This document shows, piece after piece, positions 1 to 4,752 of a DNA stretch of 4,752 bases. Every line of letters starts with the position of its first letter. Positions within the stretch are counted from its first letter, which is position 1. This DNA comes from a virus (lineage: Duplodnaviria; Heunggongvirae; Uroviricota; Caudoviricetes). The translations under genes were made by a program, and so were the position numbers. The notes below the pieces were generated by a model. That model worked only from the letters and a program-made list of their open reading frames with translations. It was not told the DNA's origin and searched no databases. The stretch lies in the IMG/VR virus record IMGVR_UViG_2579778921_000002; one strand, given 5' to 3'.

Positions 1-573
1 TTCTGGCATGTTTGCCGCAGGTCTGATCTTGTATATTGCAGTCAAACCAGACGTACATCTTGACCATATTCTTTTCGGCGACATGCTCGGGGTAACCATC
101 GGCGATATAATCCAGACGGTGATTATTGCCGGGCTGGTTACACTTGTTATTAGCGTAAAATGGCGGGATTTTTTGCTGTTCAGCTTTGATTATCAACAGG
201 CGCAGGCAAGCGGTTTGTAAGCGGTTTGCATACGAGATGTCTGCATTATGGGCTGCTGTGCATGGTCTCTCTGACCATTGTGGCGACGCTGAAAGCGGTA
301 GGTATCATTCTCTCCATTTCTCTGCTCATTGCGCCTGGCGCCATTGCGGTACTCCTGACACAACGCTTTCATATTGCGCTCCTACTGGCGATTGGCATAT
401 CGGTAATAGTGTCAATGACTGGTGTCTGGTTGTCCTTTTTTATCGACAGTGCACCAGCTCCGACGATTGTCGTCTTATTCGCGGTTGTGTTCATCATGAC
501 GTTCACCGTTACCAGCATCAACGCACGCACAAAGGGAAACACCCATACACAGGATTTGTCATCACCCAATTAG
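1..573 (+). pseudogene. sitD: 3' portion of an ABC-3 family metal (Mn/Fe-type) ABC transporter permease gene, SitD/YfeD/MntB-like, continuing upstream of the window. The reading frame is interrupted by an 11-bp insertion at 218-228: the upstream part is in frame 2 (2..220, ending at TAA 218-220) and the downstream part in frame 1 (229..573).
   Basis: The frame-2 translation (…LFGDMLGVTIGDIIQTVIIAGLVTLVISV…FDYQQAQASGL) and frame-1 translation (HTRCLHYGLLCMVSLTIVATLKAVGIILSISLLIAPGAIAVLLTQRF…) are both strongly hydrophobic, multi-helix and typical of ABC-3 permease C-terminal halves. Removing nt 218-228 joins them into one continuous protein. The symbol is a best guess from family resemblance and context, not a confirmed identity. 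Confidence 0.6.
208..228 (+). repeat. Imperfect tandem duplication: aagcggtttg (208-217), T (218), aagcggtttg (219-228). It is the cause of the frameshift and premature stop in the permease gene.
   Basis: Direct reading of the sequence; T218 with A219-A220 forms TAA in the upstream reading frame. Confidence 0.85.
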
Positions 574-710
574 CACAACATCCGAGGGCAGCATCGTCCG
601 CTGGCCCACAGAAGTCCGGAAAGTCATGGAAGGTCGTTGTTGGGAGGAGGTACAAATTCTCTCATGCAAAAAATACGTAAAATCGATAATAGCTGGAAAT
701 AATTCAATAC

Positions 711-771
711 ATGCACTCTCGAAAGTGCATCAGCCAACCGCAGAACGTTATTGCATACAACGTTTCTGCGG
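711..771. other. Two adjacent inverted repeats in the intergenic junction. Hairpin 1 is 711-730 (atgcact / ctcgaa loop / agtgcat, 7-bp stem). Hairpin 2 is 738-771 (ccgcagaacgtt / 9-nt loop / aacgtttctgcgg, about 12-bp stem with a 1-nt bulge). Function is unknown.
   Basis: Complementarity checked by eye. Neither hairpin is followed by a clear T-run on either strand, so they are not canonical intrinsic terminators. Confidence 0.35.
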
Positions 772-924
772 CATAATCCCAATGATTACTCCCTGACAGG
801 GTTCGTAGGCCACTCAATATCAGGTGCAGTTGATGTATCAACACGGTTCAGCAGCATCCGATACTTTTTCCAGGCTTCCAGCAACGGGGTTTCTTCCTCC
901 GTTGCATATACAGCTCACCTTTTT

Positions 925-1218
925 TCACCCACGATTAACCAACAGCCAGACCAGCAGACACGCCACCACCGGCACAGCAAAATCCATCAGGCTTGCCACA
1001 TCCCATGCACGTGTATCAAAACCGCCCCACCACGGCATATTCATTCGCTTGCCATGCCCGAACATTTCGATCCAGCGATATTCTGCCTGGGTGTGTTCAC
1101 GCGCAATGAAGAACGTACAACCGGCTATCGCCCCGTAAGCCCAGTTCCCGGTAAAAAGACCAATCAGTAGCTGCGCAGCCACAGCACAAAGCGCATGAAG
1201 GAAAGGTGTTATATCCAT
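925..1218 (-). CDS. Hypothetical small membrane protein of 97 aa with two hydrophobic segments (N-terminal ALCAVAAQLLIGLF and C-terminal FAVPVVACLLVWLLV). Possibly a prophage cargo (moron) gene.
   Basis: ATG at 1216-1218 is preceded on the minus strand by a strong Shine-Dalgarno, GAAGGAGGAG (plus-strand 1221-1230), at good spacing. The ORF is uninterrupted and the hydrophobic segments are flanked by charged residues. The overlapping plus-strand ORFs have implausible composition. Confidence 0.6.
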   Translation of the reverse strand: MDITPFLHALCAVAAQLLIGLFTGNWAYGAIAGCTFFIAREHTQAEYRWIEMFGHGKRMNMPWWGGFDTRAWDVASLMDFAVPVVACLLVWLLVNRG

Positions 1219-1239
1219 TACTCCTCCTTCATCCTACCC

Positions 1240-1262
1240 AATAAAACGGGGCGCTCGGCCCC
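1240..1262 (-). terminator. Putative Rho-independent terminator for the minus-strand tail-fibre operon. On the minus strand it reads GGGGC-CGAGC-GCCCC followed by GTTTTATT.
   Basis: 5-bp all-GC stem at plus 1248-1252 and 1258-1262 with a 5-nt loop and a U-rich tract, located 7 nt downstream of the orf346 stop (1269-1271). Confidence 0.5.
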
Positions 1263-1268
1263 TTAATA

Positions 1269-2309
1269 TTATTTAGACGCAAGCGCCGCCTCAATTACAG
1301 ATAATCTTTGTCTTAATTCTGCGTTTTCTTCTTCCAGTGCTGTTATTCTGTCGTCTGACTCTCTGGCTACCTGAACAAGCAAGCCAGTAACACCAGAATA
1401 ATCTACTGTGTAATAACGTTCACCTTCTTCACCTTCCGATCCGCTCGCACCGTCCTGATATTTCATTGCGGAACCTACAACTTCTGGGATTGCTTCCAGA
1501 GCTTCCTGTGCAATGACACCAGCATAGGGCATACCGTTTTCTTTAAGCGTGTATGTATAGCCGTTCATTTTACGGATGCGGTCGGTTGCATTATCGATCA
1601 CCTGAATGTTGTCTTTCAGATCCCGGTCGGAATGCTGGTTAAATGCGGTGGCATGACATGCACCATTAACGCTTAACATATAGGTGTTATCGGTATTTTT
1701 CTGCGCATAGAACATATAAGCGCCACCATCAACACCGACTTCATAAACAACAGGACGGCTGGAATTTCCCCATAATAACGTCGACACACCAGAATACGCC
1801 GTACCTTGCGTGTTTAGTGTCATGGTCGACCCGTGATTAGCATATTTGATCTGCAATGAGTCTGTATTATCAAACTTAATAAGCGCGTTACTTCCCCGCA
1901 CACCATACGACATGAGACAGTTCCCCATCTTAAGGTAACCATCACTGCCTGGAAAAATTAAAGTTCCTCCGTAAAGATCACTAAAGTCCCAAAAGATACC
2001 TTTTGTCCCGTTATGTGTGACGATCCTCGTCATTGTATCTTTAGTACCATCAATATTTTTTCTGGTATATATGTCACTATAAGCGTTTTCCGTTTCACCA
2101 GTCTTATTTGACAAATGCAGCTTACCGCTGAATATAGTTCCAGTTGTTGGCAATGTTTTTTGATCATAGATTACATTGCAATAACCATTCCATGTTGTTT
2201 TATTGTCTACATAAGATTTTGTTGCGTAGCTTCCTTGATCGTTTTTTAATTTGCTAACGTCGGATTTTAGCGTTTTGATGTCATCAGGAATTACTGTCGA
2301 TGTAGCCAT
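1269..2309 (-). CDS. Phage tail fibre / receptor-binding-type protein of 346 aa. The N-terminal ~226 aa is a Gly/Thr/Asn/Tyr-rich, probably beta-rich domain. The C-terminal ~120 aa resembles the intramolecular chaperone auto-processing domain (Peptidase S74-like) of phage fibres and tailspikes.
   Basis: The C-terminal segment begins HSDRDLKDNIQVIDNATDRIRKMNGYTYTLKENGMPYAGVIAQEALEAIPEVV and ends in a predicted coiled coil (RITALEEENAELRQRLSVIEAALASK), matching the S-D-x-R-x-K-x-N-I signature of intramolecular chaperone domains. A GAGGAAG Shine-Dalgarno overlaps the stop of the upstream 93-aa ORF. Confidence 0.8.
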   Translation of the reverse strand: MATSTVIPDDIKTLKSDVSKLKNDQGSYATKSYVDNKTTWNGYCNVIYDQKTLPTTGTIFSGKLHLSNKTGETENAYSDIYTRKNIDGTKDTMTRIVTHNGTKGIFWDFSDLYGGTLIFPGSDGYLKMGNCLMSYGVRGSNALIKFDNTDSLQIKYANHGSTMTLNTQGTAYSGVSTLLWGNSSRPVVYEVGVDGGAYMFYAQKNTDNTYMLSVNGACHATAFNQHSDRDLKDNIQVIDNATDRIRKMNGYTYTLKENGMPYAGVIAQEALEAIPEVVGSAMKYQDGASGSEGEEGERYYTVDYSGVTGLLVQVARESDDRITALEEENAELRQRLSVIEAALASK

Positions 2310-2318
2310 TTTTCTTCC

Positions 2319-2600
2319 TCACATCCAGCCACGAAGTTGATGCTCAACAGCAACCACGTATTCATCGAATAATGACGATATTTGCGAATCATTAATGATG
2401 CGCACGTTTACAAAATATCCGTCTTCCTTAACACATACCGGTTCGCCATCTTCAGTCAGTTCTCCGGTTTCTTTGTACACGTTACCTATCACGTCGATAA
2501 GAATATCATCCTGCATCGACTCGTCATCATAATAGCCAATACTCTCCATAAAGGCCGAAAAGTCGGCCCTGTCTTCAAATTTGAGTGTTAAATCTTTCAT
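2319..2600 (-). CDS. Hypothetical small, highly acidic protein of 93 aa (22 Asp+Glu against 7 Lys+Arg by direct count). Translationally coupled to stf; possibly a fibre assembly or adaptor factor, or an acidic anti-defence-type protein.
   Basis: Its ATG (2598-2600) overlaps the stf stop (2600-2602) as TAATG on the minus strand. The ORF is uninterrupted with coding-like composition. No family was recognised from memory. Confidence 0.7.
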   Translation of the reverse strand: MKDLTLKFEDRADFSAFMESIGYYDDESMQDDILIDVIGNVYKETGELTEDGEPVCVKEDGYFVNVRIINDSQISSLFDEYVVAVEHQLRGWM

Positions 2601-4752
2601 TAGATTGACTCCCCCACCTGAGCATCAGTCAATGCCTTGTGCCATATTCTGAAATTCCTGACATGACCAAATAAATGACGTAACCCGGCTGTAGTCTGGC
2701 CTCCAATACGGATAATTGCGGTGTTCTGAATACAGGACCATGTGGTTTTTGTTTCGCTGGATATATGCCCGTTACTTACTGAGCACGTAGACTGCTCTGA
2801 CTTTACACGCATCCCCATAACCATTTTTTCAAGCGATGCGTTTTCGTTTACCCGTCTGTTAGCCAAACCTATATCACAATAAGGAAATCCGTCGTAATCT
2901 GTTCCTCCAATATCGCAATAAGGAAATCCGTCGTAATCTGTTGAACGACCGAAGCCAAGAATAATAGCCGCTCCGGTTTGATGACCGCCGGTATCAAAAA
3001 CACGTGGCGCTGCATTTGGCGTTTTATACCAGTTCTTATGTACCTCACAAAGAACCGTAAAAGGAAGATTATAAAGATTATTCTTAATTGGAACTGTAAC
3101 TATATCGCTTGCGCGGGTCGCCGCCGTCGCTCCTGATATAATAAAAGATGATACACAAGGCCCATCTTCTACTTGTGGGGTGGCCAGATAAATATAGTCA
3201 CCAGATACGGTTGCCCCGCTCTGCTTAGGAGAATACTGTATCTGAGAGCCTATTTTTAACTCCCCATCAATTGCCTGAATTGTTGCCTCTGCAAAAATCC
3301 ATCCGGTAGCTTCGTCCTTTCTGACTCTCGCTGTAATCCTTGAGGCAGCACCGCCTGTCATATTAATTTCAAGCGTTTGTGTATCAATATACGCATCACC
3401 AAGAAAAGTTGTTGCGCTACCGTCATATTTATCAAACCGGATACGCAACCTTACCTGCAGTTCTGTTTTAAAACGACATGAGGTTGTCACGTGTTTATTA
3501 TCGCCTGAGACATCAACTGACTTTGTTGCAGCAATTGATGCCATATTAATGGCTGAGGTTTGCCCAATCAGAGAATCGTTGCAGACAAACTTTCCATAGG
3601 TAAAACCAAAATTATCCGTCCCTGTTTCGGGCACATCCATATTTGACGATCGCCCCCAACTGGCAGGGCTTTCCGAATTGAGCATGTAGTTTGTTCTTTG
3701 CCCCTCAATAAGCAGGCCATCACGTTCAAATCGTGGCTCGTCAATGGCAGCCTCTGTCAGCACACCAGATTTGTTAATATAGGTTGCTTTCGATGCACGT
3801 TTAAACTTAACAATCTTGTCGCCAGGCATCGTTATTTCATCGTCACCAATAACAATTTTTTTATATGACGGCGAAAAGCCCGTAATCATATCCAGCGAAT
3901 CGTTAAATGGTATCCACACATCAGGCAGCGGCTGTAAGACATATTTATACGGCTCCGCAGCCTGGCTTGCGTACTCTCTGGCTGCATCTTCGCTTGCTTT
4001 AGCTGCCGTCTGGCTTGCTGCCGATGCTTTCGCTGAGTTCGCAGCCGCTGTTTCGCTCACCTTTGCGTTGGTTTCACTGGTTTTTGCTGCTTTTTGACTG
4101 TTAGCTGATGCAGTGGCAGAAGCAGCCGCCGCGCTTGCAGAACTGGCTGCGGCACTCTCGCTTTGAGCCGCTGCATCCTGACTGCTTTTCGCCGCAGTTT
4201 CACTGGCTTTGGCATTCGTTTCGCTGGTCTTCGCTGCCGTCTGGCTGGACTTTGCGTTAGTTTCACTCGTCTTCGCAGCTTTCTGGCTGTTAGCCGCAGC
4301 AGTTGCTGATCCAGCTGCTGAAGTCGCAGAACCGGCTGCCGCGCTCTCGCTTTGGGCTGCTGCAACCTGGCTGTTTTTTGCCGCAGTTTCACTGGCTTTA
4401 GCATTCGTTTCGCTGGTTTTCGCTGCCGTCTGGCTGGACTTTGCGTTGGTTTCGCTCGTCTTTGCGGCTGTCTCACTGTTTTTCGCGTTGGTTTCTGATT
4501 TTTTGGCTGCTGTCGCGGAGTTTGCCGATGCAGTCTGTGAGGTCGCTGCCGCCTGTGCGCTGTTAGCTGCATTCGTTTCTGAGGTTTTCGCCGCGTTCTT
4601 CGATGATGCCGCTGCAGTTTCGGATTTCTTTGCCGCCGCTGCGCTCTGAGAGGCGGCTTCAGCGTTGCGTGCCGCTTCTTCCACCATTTCCTCAAAACGA
4701 CGCAATGCCTCCGGCATGACATCATCTTCCGTCATGGCACCGAGAAAATCAT
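2600..4752 (-). CDS. stf: Lambda Stf-type side tail fibre protein, 5'-partial (the N-terminus lies beyond the window end). It has a conserved Stf segment, an Ala/Ser/Thr-rich heptad-repeat shaft, and a divergent C-terminal region of about 450 aa ending in a concanavalin A-like (LamG-type) lectin-like domain.
   Basis: The frame stays open to the window edge (…DFLGA-MTEDDVMPEALRRFEEMVEEAARNA), which matches the lambda Stf segment …DFLCAMTEDD…LRR…MVEE…ARNA as recalled from memory. It is followed by about 235 aa of KTSETNA-type repeats. The C-terminus, LRHLFGHVRNFRIWHKALTDAQV, resembles the terminal strand motif of LamG/ConA-like domains. Confidence 0.9.
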   Translation of the reverse strand, partial: DFLGAMTEDDVMPEALRRFEEMVEEAARNAEAASQSAAAAKKSETAAASSKNAAKTSETNAANSAQAAATSQTASANSATAAKKSETNAKNSETAAKTSETNAKSSQTAAKTSETNAKASETAAKNSQVAAAQSESAAAGSATSAAGSATAAANSQKAAKTSETNAKSSQTAAKTSETNAKASETAAKSSQDAAAQSESAAASSASAAAASATASANSQKAAKTSETNAKVSETAAANSAKASAASQTAAKASEDAAREYASQAAEPYKYVLQPLPDVWIPFNDSLDMITGFSPSYKKIVIGDDEITMPGDKIVKFKRASKATYINKSGVLTEAAIDEPRFERDGLLIEGQRTNYMLNSESPASWGRSSNMDVPETGTDNFGFTYGKFVCNDSLIGQTSAINMASIAATKSVDVSGDNKHVTTSCRFKTELQVRLRIRFDKYDGSATTFLGDAYIDTQTLEINMTGGAASRITARVRKDEATGWIFAEATIQAIDGELKIGSQIQYSPKQSGATVSGDYIYLATPQVEDGPCVSSFIISGATAATRASDIVTVPIKNNLYNLPFTVLCEVHKNWYKTPNAAPRVFDTGGHQTGAAIILGFGRSTDYDGFPYCDIGGTDYDGFPYCDIGLANRRVNENASLEKMVMGMRVKSEQSTCSVSNGHISSETKTTWSCIQNTAIIRIGGQTTAGLRHLFGHVRNFRIWHKALTDAQVGESI
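2867..2948 (-). repeat. In-frame tandem duplication of about 39 bp inside the stf C-terminal domain, encoding (S/G)TDYDGFPYCDIG twice.
   Basis: Plus-strand 2871-2909 and 2910-2948 share 33 consecutive positions with one mismatch (a/g), which is synonymous (TGT/TGC Cys) on the coding strand. Confidence 0.9.
3956..4663 (-). repeat. Ala/Ser/Thr-rich repeat region of stf with 21-bp (7-aa) periodicity. It contains a higher-order 189-bp (63-aa) tandem duplication (two full units at about 4097..4474, plus a partial third toward 4040).
   Basis: The anchor gccgcagtttcactggcttt occurs at 4191 and 4380 (period 189 bp) with about 85-90% identity over the surrounding unit. The protein shows KAAKTSETNAKSSQTAAKTSETNAKASETAAK(N/S)SQ… twice. 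Confidence 0.85.

What the first reader, a model, noticed from the sequence alone, without database searches (positions are those of the whole stretch)
925..1218. 97-aa two-segment membrane protein with a near-consensus RBS directly downstream of the fibre operon: candidate moron or superinfection-exclusion factor
The ORF has one of the strongest ribosome-binding sites in the window (GAAGGAGGAG then ATG) and encodes a small protein with two hydrophobic helices and a charged, Trp-rich middle segment (REHTQAEYRWIEMFGHGKRMNMPWWGGFDTRAWD). The position immediately distal to tail-fibre genes is where lambdoid prophages carry lysogenic-conversion or exclusion genes (cor, lom and bor are examples of that type). 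I could not assign it to a known family from memory.
Basis: partly seen in the sequence, partly recalled or inferred. Interest (0 to 1): 0.5.

Follow-up and report, generated by a model that had tools for sequence, protein, structure and literature searches.

The report
Conserved small membrane protein behind phage fibres
The 97-codon ORF is a real, selected gene for a small inner-membrane protein of an uncharacterised family that temperate phages carry right after their receptor-binding genes, but that also occurs as an ordinary chromosomal gene in some bacteria; its function is still unknown.

Summary

It occurs in 2068 of 5426 complete E. coli genomes and in phage 21. The wider family has 430 clusters at 50% identity. 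Near-invariant residues are H8, R40-E41, Q44-A45-E46, W72 and P83.

AlphaFold2 (pLDDT 90) gives three helices rather than two: a GxxxG-rich N-terminal hairpin, a juxtamembrane helix plus Trp-rich loop, and a C-terminal transmembrane helix.

In lambda-like, P22-like and P2-like temperate phages the gene lies directly after the fibre or tailspike genes, in known lysogenic-conversion slots. Virulent T1-like phages with the same fibre module lack it.

Three findings do not fit a simple moron or exclusion-factor reading. No promoter of its own was found, and here a terminator lies 17 nt upstream of the RBS. Intact copies exist in jumbo virulent phages. Non-phage chromosomal orthologues exist in Leclercia, Aeromonas and Sphingomonadales.

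Verdict: a host-derived accessory membrane-protein cassette. An envelope or exclusion role is plausible but untested.

The parts
925..1218 (-). CDS of the 97-aa membrane protein (family phrog_1443); stop codon at 925-927
   Evidence: ORF list. Full-length match to phrog_1443, E 2.8e-58. dN/dS 0.15-0.28. 100% identical protein in phage PhiR63_1 and 94.8% identical in phage 21.
1150..1209 (-). Helix 1 / TM1 (residues 4-23), with near-invariant H8, Q16 and G20xxxG24
   Evidence: AF2 model; conservation; hydropathy.
1063..1143 (-). Helix 2 (residues 26-52). The hydrophobic half is residues 27-39 with G29xxxG33 and C34. The amphipathic half is residues 40-52, carrying the invariant R40-E41 and Q44-A45-E46-Y47-R48-W49-I50 motif.
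   Evidence: AF2 model; alignments A1 and A2; hydrophobic moment 0.45 for residues 40-52.
1000..1062 (-). Structured Trp-rich loop (residues 53-73): FGxGKRxNMPWWGGFDxRAWD, with invariant R58 and W72
   Evidence: AF2 pLDDT of about 87-90 with short helical turns; conservation.
931..999 (-). Helix 3 / TM3 (residues 74-96), with conserved D79, P83 and C87
   Evidence: AF2 model; hydropathy; conservation.
1221..1230 (-). Shine-Dalgarno GAAGGAGGAG (AAGGAGG core at 1223-1229), 4 nt before the ATG
   Evidence: Sequence. It is the only AAGGAGG in the window. The RBS is polymorphic among homologous loci: a 9-nt indel removes it in L005 and in phage 611R6.
1240..1262 (-). Intrinsic-terminator-like hairpin GGGGCCGAGCGCCCC followed by GTTTTATT, between the stop of the 346-aa fibre gene and the RBS of the ORF
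   Evidence: Terminator scan. The same element precedes the ORF in L005 and 611R6. It is absent in phage 21 and in L074.
786..905 (-). C-terminal remnant of a tail fibre assembly (tfa) gene directly downstream of the ORF
   Evidence: RefSeq annotation of the identical locus. Translation ends ...[32 protein letters not shown].
739..772 (.). Long near-perfect palindrome (CCGCAGAACGTT...AACGTTTCTGCGG) between the sitD end and the tfa remnant. It is a possible bidirectional transcription stop, but has no clear U tract.
   Evidence: RNA fold of 700-930(-); sequence.
1269..2309 (-). 346-aa tail fibre protein with a C-terminal Peptidase_S74 intramolecular chaperone domain. This cassette lies between the 93-aa ORF and the membrane-protein ORF in this window only, not in phage 21.
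   Evidence: Pfam PF13884, E 6e-14; phrog_4563; comparison with phage 21 and L074.
2319..2600 (-). 93-aa acidic protein (phrog_1361, unknown function) that always follows this type of side tail fibre
   Evidence: phrog_1361, E 2.5e-46. Found in 181 phage records, including virulent Drexlerviridae.
2600..4752 (-). Side tail fibre (Stf), 5' end outside the window; the distal part has a GTA head-spike-fibre-like domain
   Evidence: phrog_1419, PF08400 and NF048003. 791 aa in the intact locus.

Best explanation
Shown. The ORF is a genuine, selected gene for a polytopic inner-membrane protein of about 95 aa. It belongs to an uncharacterised but widespread family (phrog_1443; no Pfam or NCBIfam model). 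The family has cellular members and has been captured repeatedly by phages as a compact cassette running from RBS to stop codon. In temperate phages of three tail types the cassette sits immediately after the receptor-binding protein genes, at the end of the late operon and in the known conversion-gene slots.

Inferred anatomy. Helices 1 and 2 form a tight GxxxG hairpin. H8 (helix 1), R40/E41/Q44/E46 (end of helix 2) and D79 (start of helix 3) all lie a few residues from the same membrane face. Together with the Trp-rich loop they would form one conserved polar pocket at the membrane interface. Such a pocket could be a catalytic, ion-binding or ligand-binding site.

Inferred function (my best guess). 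It is an accessory envelope-acting factor, not a virion or assembly component. It is made together with the fibres, by read-through of the late operon and possibly at low level in lysogens. It would change a conserved inner-membrane or envelope process that incoming phages depend on. That would reduce superinfection, or re-adsorption and ejection into infected or lysogenic cells, much as Cor does at the same genomic position. In this particular window the gene lies in a decayed prophage behind a terminator, so it may be poorly expressed here.

The confidence below refers to this inferred function. Confidence that it is a real gene for a membrane protein carried as an accessory cassette is about 0.9.
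For: Real gene: dN/dS 0.15-0.28; full-length phrog_1443 hit; 453 homologues and 430 clusters at 50% identity; present in 2068 of 5426 complete E. coli genomes.

Membrane protein with a conserved polar constellation.

Not needed for fibre function: 181 phages carry the fibre-linked 93-aa gene but only 72 carry this ORF. Virulent Drexlerviridae such as KarlJaspers lack it, and ST1UNAM keeps only a broken remnant.

Position after receptor-binding protein genes in different phage types:
- Lambdoid phages.
- P22-like phages: tailspike-ORF-int, and tailspike-OafA-ORF-int.
- P2-like phiHAP-1: tfa-ORF-sheath.
- Leclercia, Desulfovibrio, Comamonas, Halomonas and Chelativorans prophages.

Lambda itself lacks the ORF at this slot. 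The cassette boundaries lie at the RBS, with three different upstream junction types. GC is 53%, against 34-47% in the fibre genes. Lateral fibres of these siphoviruses are thought to target surface glycans (PMC8594841).
Against: No experiment or homology links the family to exclusion. There are no PADLOC, PHROG-annotated, Pfam or NCBIfam matches.

No promoter was found upstream in three contexts. In this window a terminator lies 17 nt upstream of the RBS. Expression in lysogens is therefore unproven.

Chromosomal orthologues sit at fixed non-phage positions. In Leclercia they lie between an M3 oligopeptidase gene and MetE-like/ABC transporter genes. In Aeromonas they lie next to pirin. In Sphingomonadales they lie next to ligA, pnp or ftsZ. 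This points to a cell-autonomous function.

Intact copies in virulent jumbo phages, and copies next to terminase genes, show that the link to fibre genes is not universal. The very high sequence conservation across different receptor-binding protein types argues against a receptor-specific mechanism.

Topology is unresolved. K+R counts put the conserved middle region in the cytoplasm. The phage 21 annotation (TMHMM) puts it in the periplasm.
Confidence: 0.35

Rival explanations
1. It is a cell-physiology factor unrelated to phage entry. The family would be a minimal integral-membrane enzyme or an ion/metal-binding or transport-associated subunit of cellular origin. Phage-borne copies would be fitness cargo, comparable to sitABCD or to an auxiliary metabolic gene, that benefits the lysogen or the infected cell.
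For: Orthologues in conserved non-phage chromosomal positions in Leclercia (5 loci), Aeromonas and Sphingomonadales. Near-invariant H/R/E/Q/E/W/P residues across alpha-, beta- and gamma-proteobacterial and Desulfovibrio members. Intact copies in virulent jumbo phages. In E. coli phages it sits among other fitness cargo such as sitABCD and a diguanylate cyclase (PMC6969025).
Against: It does not explain why phage copies are so often placed, or even translationally overlapped, directly after receptor-binding protein genes in unrelated phage types. No conserved chromosomal neighbour suggests a pathway. No fold or sequence similarity to any known enzyme or transporter was found.
Confidence: 0.25
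2. It is a surface-glycan conversion accessory. The protein would modulate an undecaprenyl-phosphate-linked pathway (O-antigen, capsule or ECA polymerisation, flipping or modification). It would resemble the small hydrophobic Iap inhibitors of O-antigen polymerase, or act as a helper to Gtr/Oac systems, changing the glycan that fibres and tailspikes bind.
For: It occupies the tailspike-int conversion locus of P22-like phages, once directly beside an OafA-type O-acetylase. The upstream receptor-binding proteins are glycan-binding types: a GTA head-spike-fibre domain, tailspikes, and fibres with an S74 chaperone domain. Lateral fibres of small siphoviruses are proposed to bind O-antigen (PMC8594841).
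Against: No GtrA, acyltransferase or glycosyltransferase signature was found. The sequence is nearly constant while the neighbouring receptor-binding proteins, and so the glycans they target, differ. Orthologues occur in Sphingomonadales, which lack classical LPS (this last point is from my own knowledge). Copies also occur in jumbo phages.
Confidence: 0.15
3. It has a late lytic-cycle function tied to production of the receptor-binding protein. Being co-translated with fibres or tailspikes, it could protect the producing cell's envelope, time or assist release, or hold or shield fibres at the membrane. On this reading it would have no role in lysogens.
For: No promoter of its own was found. 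There are 4-nt overlaps or gaps of 10-12 nt to upstream late genes in JEP4, phage 21, L014, L027, L031 and L046. It is present in virulent jumbo phages.
Against: It is absent from more than 100 virulent phages that have the same fibre plus 92-aa module. It is retained intact in decayed prophages such as this one. Cellular orthologues exist without any phage context.
Confidence: 0.12

Closest known systems
phrog_1443 (PHROGs v4, 'unknown function'); includes phage 21 CPT_21_24 'putative membrane protein'
   Same: Full-length HMM match (residues 1-96 against profile positions 1-96 of 97, E 2.8e-58). 94.8% identity to the phage 21 protein, in the same position after Stf and the 92-aa ORF.
   Different: Nothing differs; this ORF is a member. 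The family has no assigned function and no Pfam or NCBIfam model.
Cor (phi80, N15, HK022, T1): an exclusion lipoprotein encoded just downstream of the tail fibre / J genes
   Same: Same genomic logic: a small envelope protein encoded directly distal to receptor-binding genes, without an obvious promoter of its own. The description of Cor is from my own knowledge; it was not tested here.
   Different: Cor is an outer-membrane lipoprotein that blocks FhuA. This ORF is a polytopic inner-membrane protein with no lipobox. It shows no sequence or profile similarity to any annotated PHROG, and it has cellular orthologues.
Lambda Lom and Bor (lysogenic-conversion envelope proteins)
   Same: Accessory envelope proteins of lambdoid prophages. 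lom lies in the same late-operon region, and a Lom-family gene is present upstream of stf in the intact version of this locus.
   Different: Lom is an Ail/Lom outer-membrane beta-barrel and Bor is a lipoprotein. This protein is alpha-helical and sits in the inner membrane. No homology was found.
Inner-membrane superinfection-exclusion proteins (HK97 gp15, P22 SieA, T4 Imm)
   Same: Small phage-encoded inner-membrane proteins. gp15 also has a cellular relative, YebO (from my own knowledge).
   Different: No similarity was detected to any annotated PHROG or to any Pfam or PADLOC model. Exclusion activity is untested. This family has a strongly conserved polar motif that suggests a binding or catalytic site.
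O-antigen conversion modules next to tailspike genes (P22 gtrABC, Sf6 oac, D3 / epsilon15 Iap)
   Same: Same locus in P22-like phages (tailspike-ORF-int), adjacent to an OafA acetylase in phage 611R6.
   Different: No GtrA or acyltransferase domain. The sequence does not co-vary with the type of receptor-binding protein.

Membership tests
phrog_1443 (uncharacterised phage protein family) | Significant full-length match to the family HMM | tested here: met
   E 2.8e-58, residues 1-96 against profile positions 1-96 of 97.
Moron (Hendrix/Juhala sense) | Present or absent between genes that are adjacent in related phages | tested here: met
   Lambda has stf-tfa-ea47 without it. Phage 21 and other lambdoid phages have it. 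T1-like phages with the same fibre module lack it. Cassette junctions lie at the RBS.
Moron (Hendrix/Juhala sense) | Own promoter, giving expression from the repressed prophage | tested here: not met
   No sigma-70-like site was found between the upstream gene and the ORF in the window, in phage 21 or in JEP4. Upstream gaps are only -4 to +50 nt. A consensus scan cannot exclude weak promoters or promoters internal to the upstream gene.
Moron (Hendrix/Juhala sense) | Own downstream terminator | tested here: inconclusive
   No canonical terminator follows the stop codon. A strong palindrome at 739-772 lies beyond the tfa remnant but has no clear U tract.
Moron (Hendrix/Juhala sense) | Base composition different from the flanking phage genes | tested here: met
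   GC is about 0.53 over the ORF, against 0.34-0.47 in the adjacent fibre genes.
Known superinfection-exclusion / anti-phage defence proteins | Profile match to a described exclusion or defence family | tested here: not met
   PADLOC: none. PHROGs: only two families, both of unknown function. Pfam: only a sub-threshold PhoR transmembrane match, E 0.066.
Known superinfection-exclusion / anti-phage defence proteins | Reduces infection by other phages when expressed | not testable with these tools
   This needs plating, adsorption or DNA-entry assays.
O-antigen conversion proteins (GtrA / Oac type) | GtrA-like (PF04138) or acyltransferase domain | tested here: not met
   No such Pfam hit for the ORF or for 73 diverse family members.
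Tail fibre assembly / chaperone proteins | Obligatory co-occurrence with the fibre it serves; Tfa-type domain | tested here: not met
   The fibre plus 93-aa module occurs without the ORF in many virulent phages. No Tfa family hit. The real tfa remnant is a separate feature at 786-905.
Holins | Match to a holin family and location in a lysis cassette | tested here: not met
   Only 1 of 73 family members gave a sub-threshold Phage_holin_8 hit, E 0.0036. The lysis genes essD-rrrD lie elsewhere in the prophage.

The most novel reading that the evidence does not exclude
The ORF represents an unrecognised family of minimal (about 95 aa, three-helix) integral-membrane enzymes or ion/ligand-binding proteins. 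Their site would be built from H8, R40-E41, Q44, E46, W72, D79 and P83 at one membrane face. The family is of cellular origin (Leclercia, Aeromonas, Sphingomonadales). It has been captured independently by lambda-like, P22-like, P2-like and jumbo phages, usually coupled to receptor-binding protein genes. There it would remodel a conserved envelope component and so act as a new, receptor-independent type of phage-encoded exclusion or conversion function.
Probability: 0.2. Interest if true: 0.7.

Novelty: new member of a known kind. Interest (0 to 1): 0.42.

Why it matters
The gene is very common: 38% of complete E. coli genomes carry it, often in several copies. It is also present in phage 21 and in most wild infant-gut lambda-like phages. 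Yet it is annotated everywhere as hypothetical and has no Pfam or NCBIfam model.

Its invariant polar motif makes it an easy and well-defined target for experiments. So do its repeated placement behind receptor-binding genes in three phage architectures and its cellular orthologues. A positive result would add a new family to the short list of phage conversion and exclusion proteins that act from the inner membrane, or would define a new minimal membrane enzyme. A negative result would show that fibre-distal position alone is a poor predictor of exclusion function.

Tried and rejected
- Pfam, NCBIfam and PADLOC scans of the ORF, and Pfam and NCBIfam scans of 73 diverse family members, gave nothing above noise.
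- A profile search of PDB sequences gave no hit.
- Foldseek against BFVD gave no hit with E below 0.5, apart from a 42-aa fragment of the same family in a T1-like phage.
- The AFDB50 fold library was unavailable.
- Fibre chaperone role: rejected, because the fibre module exists without the ORF. In KarlJaspers the annotated 'chaperone' is a different, 225-aa gene, so I do not call the 93-aa ORF a chaperone either.
- Holin role: rejected (the lysis cassette is elsewhere).
- Receptor-specific masking co-evolving with one fibre type: weakened. The Stf-like fibre cluster C1 precedes the ORF in only 8 of 48 loci, and other receptor-binding protein types or non-phage genes precede it elsewhere.
- Promoter search upstream: nothing was found. 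By eye, a TTGAGG-17 nt-TAATAT match (8 of 12) sits upstream of the terminator. I rejected it, because transcripts from it would immediately run into the hairpin.
- Literature searches for the accessions and for fibre-adjacent exclusion proteins found no functional study.
- The search for related loci with the broad alignment A2 failed because the alignment had no conserved stretch; the search was repeated successfully with A1.

Full report
OBSERVATION. The window is the right end of a decayed lambdoid prophage in an Escherichia coli chromosome (99.5% identity over its full length to many E. coli genomes). In the intact version of the locus the gene order is sitABCD, then on the opposite strand a tfa remnant, the 97-aa ORF, a 346-aa fibre gene, a 93-aa ORF, stf, lom and a fragment of J, followed by trkG and other prophage remnants.

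GAAGGAGGAG lies at 1221-1230 (-), followed by TA and the ATG. AAGGAGG occurs once in the window, exactly there; 0.41 matches are expected by chance. Pairwise dN/dS against homologous copies is 0.15-0.28. The frame is therefore under purifying selection, and the two antisense ORFs are probably artefacts.

ANATOMY OF THE PROTEIN. Hydropathy shows two hydrophobic blocks, residues 3-39 and 74-95.

An AlphaFold2 model built on 54 homologues has mean pLDDT 90.4. It shows three helices (4-23, 26-52 and 74-96) and a structured loop at 53-73.

Among close relatives the core C34..F37.AREHTQAEYRWI..FG.GKR.NMPWWGGFD.RAW is almost invariant. So are D2, H8, Q16, D79, P83, C87 and four glycines that form G20xxxG24 and G29xxxG33. 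In a 73-sequence alignment with 31% mean identity, R40, E41 and W72 are invariant. H8, Q44, A45, E46 and P83 are at least 90% conserved.

H8, R40/E41 and D79 each lie a few residues from the same end of their helices. In any topology they would therefore cluster at one membrane face. This is an inference; I could not inspect the model coordinates.

K+R counts across 107 family members give 5.3 positive residues in region 40-73. The helix 1-2 turn has 0.07, and each terminus has about 0.6. By the positive-inside rule this favours N-in, C-out, with the conserved region cytoplasmic. The phage 21 record cites TMHMM as predicting two transmembrane segments, N-in and C-in. Topology is unresolved.

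WHAT FAMILY. The ORF is a full-length member of phrog_1443, whose function is unknown (E 2.8e-58).

Nothing else matched:
- Pfam, NCBIfam and PADLOC gave nothing for the ORF.
- Pfam and NCBIfam gave nothing for 73 diverse members.
- A PDB sequence-profile search found nothing.
- Foldseek against BFVD gave nothing significant.

A word-indexed search found 453 homologues, all named 'hypothetical protein' where a source gives any name. They come from Escherichia, Shigella, Salmonella, Enterobacter, Citrobacter, Leclercia, Aeromonas and Comamonas. An exhaustive profile search found 430 clusters at 50% identity, nearly all stand-alone proteins of 63-146 aa, mostly 90-120.

In E. coli the gene is present in 2068 of 5426 complete genomes. 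The median is 2 copies per genome and the maximum is 8.

GENOMIC CONTEXT IN PHAGES. Phage 21 has J, stf, a 92-aa ORF and then this ORF after a 12-nt gap. sitDCBA follows in convergent orientation. Wild lambda-like phages share this arrangement. A lambda-att prophage has stf, the 93-aa ORF, a 234-aa fibre, the ORF, a tfa remnant and then a diguanylate cyclase. Lambda itself has stf-tfa-ea47 and no such ORF.

P22-like Lederbergviruses place it between tailspike and int. In JEP4 it overlaps the tailspike stop codon by 4 nt. In phage 611R6 it lies beside an OafA O-acetylase. The P2-like phage phiHAP-1 places it between the tail fibre assembly gene and the sheath gene.

Among 68 loci recovered from one genome per species, the ORF follows tail fibre, tailspike or J-type genes in Leclercia L030, Desulfovibrio L068, Halomonas L066, Comamonas L014, L026, L032, L033 and L045, Pantoea L020 and Chelativorans L031. 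It often has 4-nt overlaps with the upstream gene. An Stf-like fibre cluster (GTA head-spike-fibre domain) precedes it in 8 loci from four genera.

The fibre-linked 93-aa protein (phrog_1361) occurs in 181 phage records, many of them virulent Drexlerviridae. The membrane-protein ORF occurs in only 72. KarlJaspers has the fibre and the 92-aa ORF but not this gene. Salmonella phage ST1UNAM retains only a broken 51-codon remnant after its tailspike. The ORF is therefore not part of the fibre machinery, and among coliphages it is essentially a temperate-phage gene.

Alignment of the upstream junctions shows three unrelated upstream sequences that converge on the RBS. A 9-nt indel removes the Shine-Dalgarno sequence in two loci. 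The ORF's GC (0.53) exceeds that of the neighbouring fibre genes (0.34-0.47). It behaves as a compact mobile cassette.

FINDINGS THAT DO NOT FIT A SIMPLE MORON OR EXCLUSION READING.

(1) No sigma-70-like promoter is found upstream in the window, in phage 21 or in JEP4. In this window an intrinsic-terminator-like hairpin with a U tract (stem 1248-1262, -) sits between the fibre stop codon and the RBS. Expression would therefore depend on read-through of late transcription. In lambdoid phages this is provided by Q antitermination (established knowledge). In this decayed prophage the gene may be nearly silent.

(2) Intact homologues exist in virulent jumbo Aeromonas phages, directly after the terminase gene. 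One also lies in a Desulfovibrio prophage between a terminase gene and two further large ORFs that were not annotated.

(3) Several homologues are plainly chromosomal and not phage-associated:
- Five Leclercia loci share the flanks of an M3 oligopeptidase and MetE-like plus ABC transporter genes.
- Aeromonas copies lie next to pirin.
- Sphingomonadales and other alphaproteobacterial copies lie next to ligA, pnp, ftsZ, an AMP nucleosidase or a HerA-family helicase gene.

The family is therefore of cellular origin, or at least in cellular use, and the invariant motif implies one conserved biochemical activity.

INTERPRETATION.

What is shown: a real, selected, very common gene for a small polytopic inner-membrane protein of an undescribed family, carried as an accessory cassette at the distal end of receptor-binding protein modules.

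What is inferred: it acts at one membrane face through the conserved polar pocket.

My preferred reading (about 0.35) is an envelope-acting accessory factor. It would be produced with the fibres and would lower superinfection or re-adsorption, analogous in genomic logic to Cor. The target would be receptor-independent and conserved.

Rival readings are:
- a cell-physiology factor carried as fitness cargo (about 0.25);
- a surface-glycan conversion accessory (about 0.15);
- a purely lytic, late-expressed function (about 0.12).

None of these can be separated further without experiments.

COMPARISON WITH KNOWN SYSTEMS. The ORF is a member of phrog_1443. It resembles Cor, Lom and Bor only in position, and HK97 gp15, SieA and Imm only in being a small phage-encoded inner-membrane protein. 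No homology to any of these was detected.

It meets the moron criteria of presence/absence polymorphism and deviant composition. It does not meet the criterion of an own promoter, and the terminator criterion is inconclusive.

Literature searches found no functional study. The phage 21 genome announcement (PMC9119081) and the infant-gut lambda study (PMC6969025) discuss morons such as sitABCD but not this gene.

VERDICT. However, it is an already catalogued hypothetical-protein family rather than something new in kind, and the exclusion idea remains a hypothesis weakened by the cellular and virulent-phage homologues. Interest is moderate (0.42). It rests on the gene's high prevalence, its striking invariant motif, its repeated capture by phages, and how easily it can be tested.

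Noticed in passing
window 208-228 (+), within sitD (1-573): An 11-bp tandem duplication (AAGCGGTTTG at 208-217 and again at 219-228) introduces a stop codon and a frameshift into sitD. The gene reads as two ORFs here (8-220 and 226-573), whereas it is intact in NZ_CP019256. In this strain the Sit Mn/Fe transporter permease is probably a pseudogene.
   Followed up: partly
window 786-905 (-): A C-terminal remnant of a tail fibre assembly gene (...[32 protein letters not shown]) lies directly downstream of the membrane-protein ORF. The same remnant follows the ORF in a lambda-att prophage (L074). This suggests the fibre-distal module replaced most of an ancestral stf-tfa pair.
   Followed up: partly
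window 739-772: A near-perfect 12-13-bp-stem palindrome (CCGCAGAACGTT...AACGTTTCTGCGG) lies between the end of sitD and the tfa remnant. It could be a bidirectional stop or a REP-like element; it has no clear U tract.
   Followed up: partly
window 2319-2600 (-): A 93-aa acidic protein (phrog_1361, unknown function) always follows this side-fibre type. It occurs in 181 phage records, including many virulent Drexlerviridae, Salmonella, Campylobacter and Listeria phages. It is likely a fibre-linked factor of unknown role. In KarlJaspers the annotated 'chaperone' is a different, neighbouring gene.
   Followed up: partly
window 1269-2309 (-) and 1240-1262 (-): A second fibre gene (346 aa, with a Peptidase_S74 intramolecular chaperone domain) and its own terminator are inserted between the 93-aa ORF and the membrane-protein ORF. 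Phage 21 lacks this cassette, and another prophage (L074) has a 234-aa variant. The fibre locus is mosaic.
   Followed up: partly
window 1219-1232 (-) compared with L005 and L078: A 9-nt indel (GGAGGAGTA) creates or removes the strong Shine-Dalgarno sequence in otherwise identical upstream sequence. The window looks like a recombinant between two junction types.
   Followed up: yes
window about 2870-2945 (-), inside stf: A tandem duplication in Stf gives the repeated peptide TDYDGFPYCDIG-GTDYDGFPYCDIG near the C-terminal domain.
   Followed up: no
window about 3960-4650 (-), inside stf: Long Ala/Ser/Thr-rich repeats of the KTSETNAK type make up the Stf shaft. The best genome matches align in 2-3 pieces and differ in length by 58 nt overall (11 nt are the sitD duplication; the rest was not located), and some strains carry IS3 or IS1 insertions in this locus.
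   Followed up: no
L076 3965-4120 (Salmonella phage vB_SenS_ST1UNAM); also phages HC6, PBM-2 and PBM-3: Unannotated, decayed remnants of the same membrane-protein gene (...ANIPWWGGFDWRAWDLPSLLD) lie directly after the tailspike in phages that appear to be virulent. This suggests past carriage of the gene followed by loss.
   Followed up: partly
L075 3917-4180 (Aeromonas jumbo phage AVP1): The 87-aa family member follows a 1122-aa 'helicase/terminase' ORF. That ORF looks as if it contains an intein-like insertion; I judged this by eye from the translation and did not test it.
   Followed up: no
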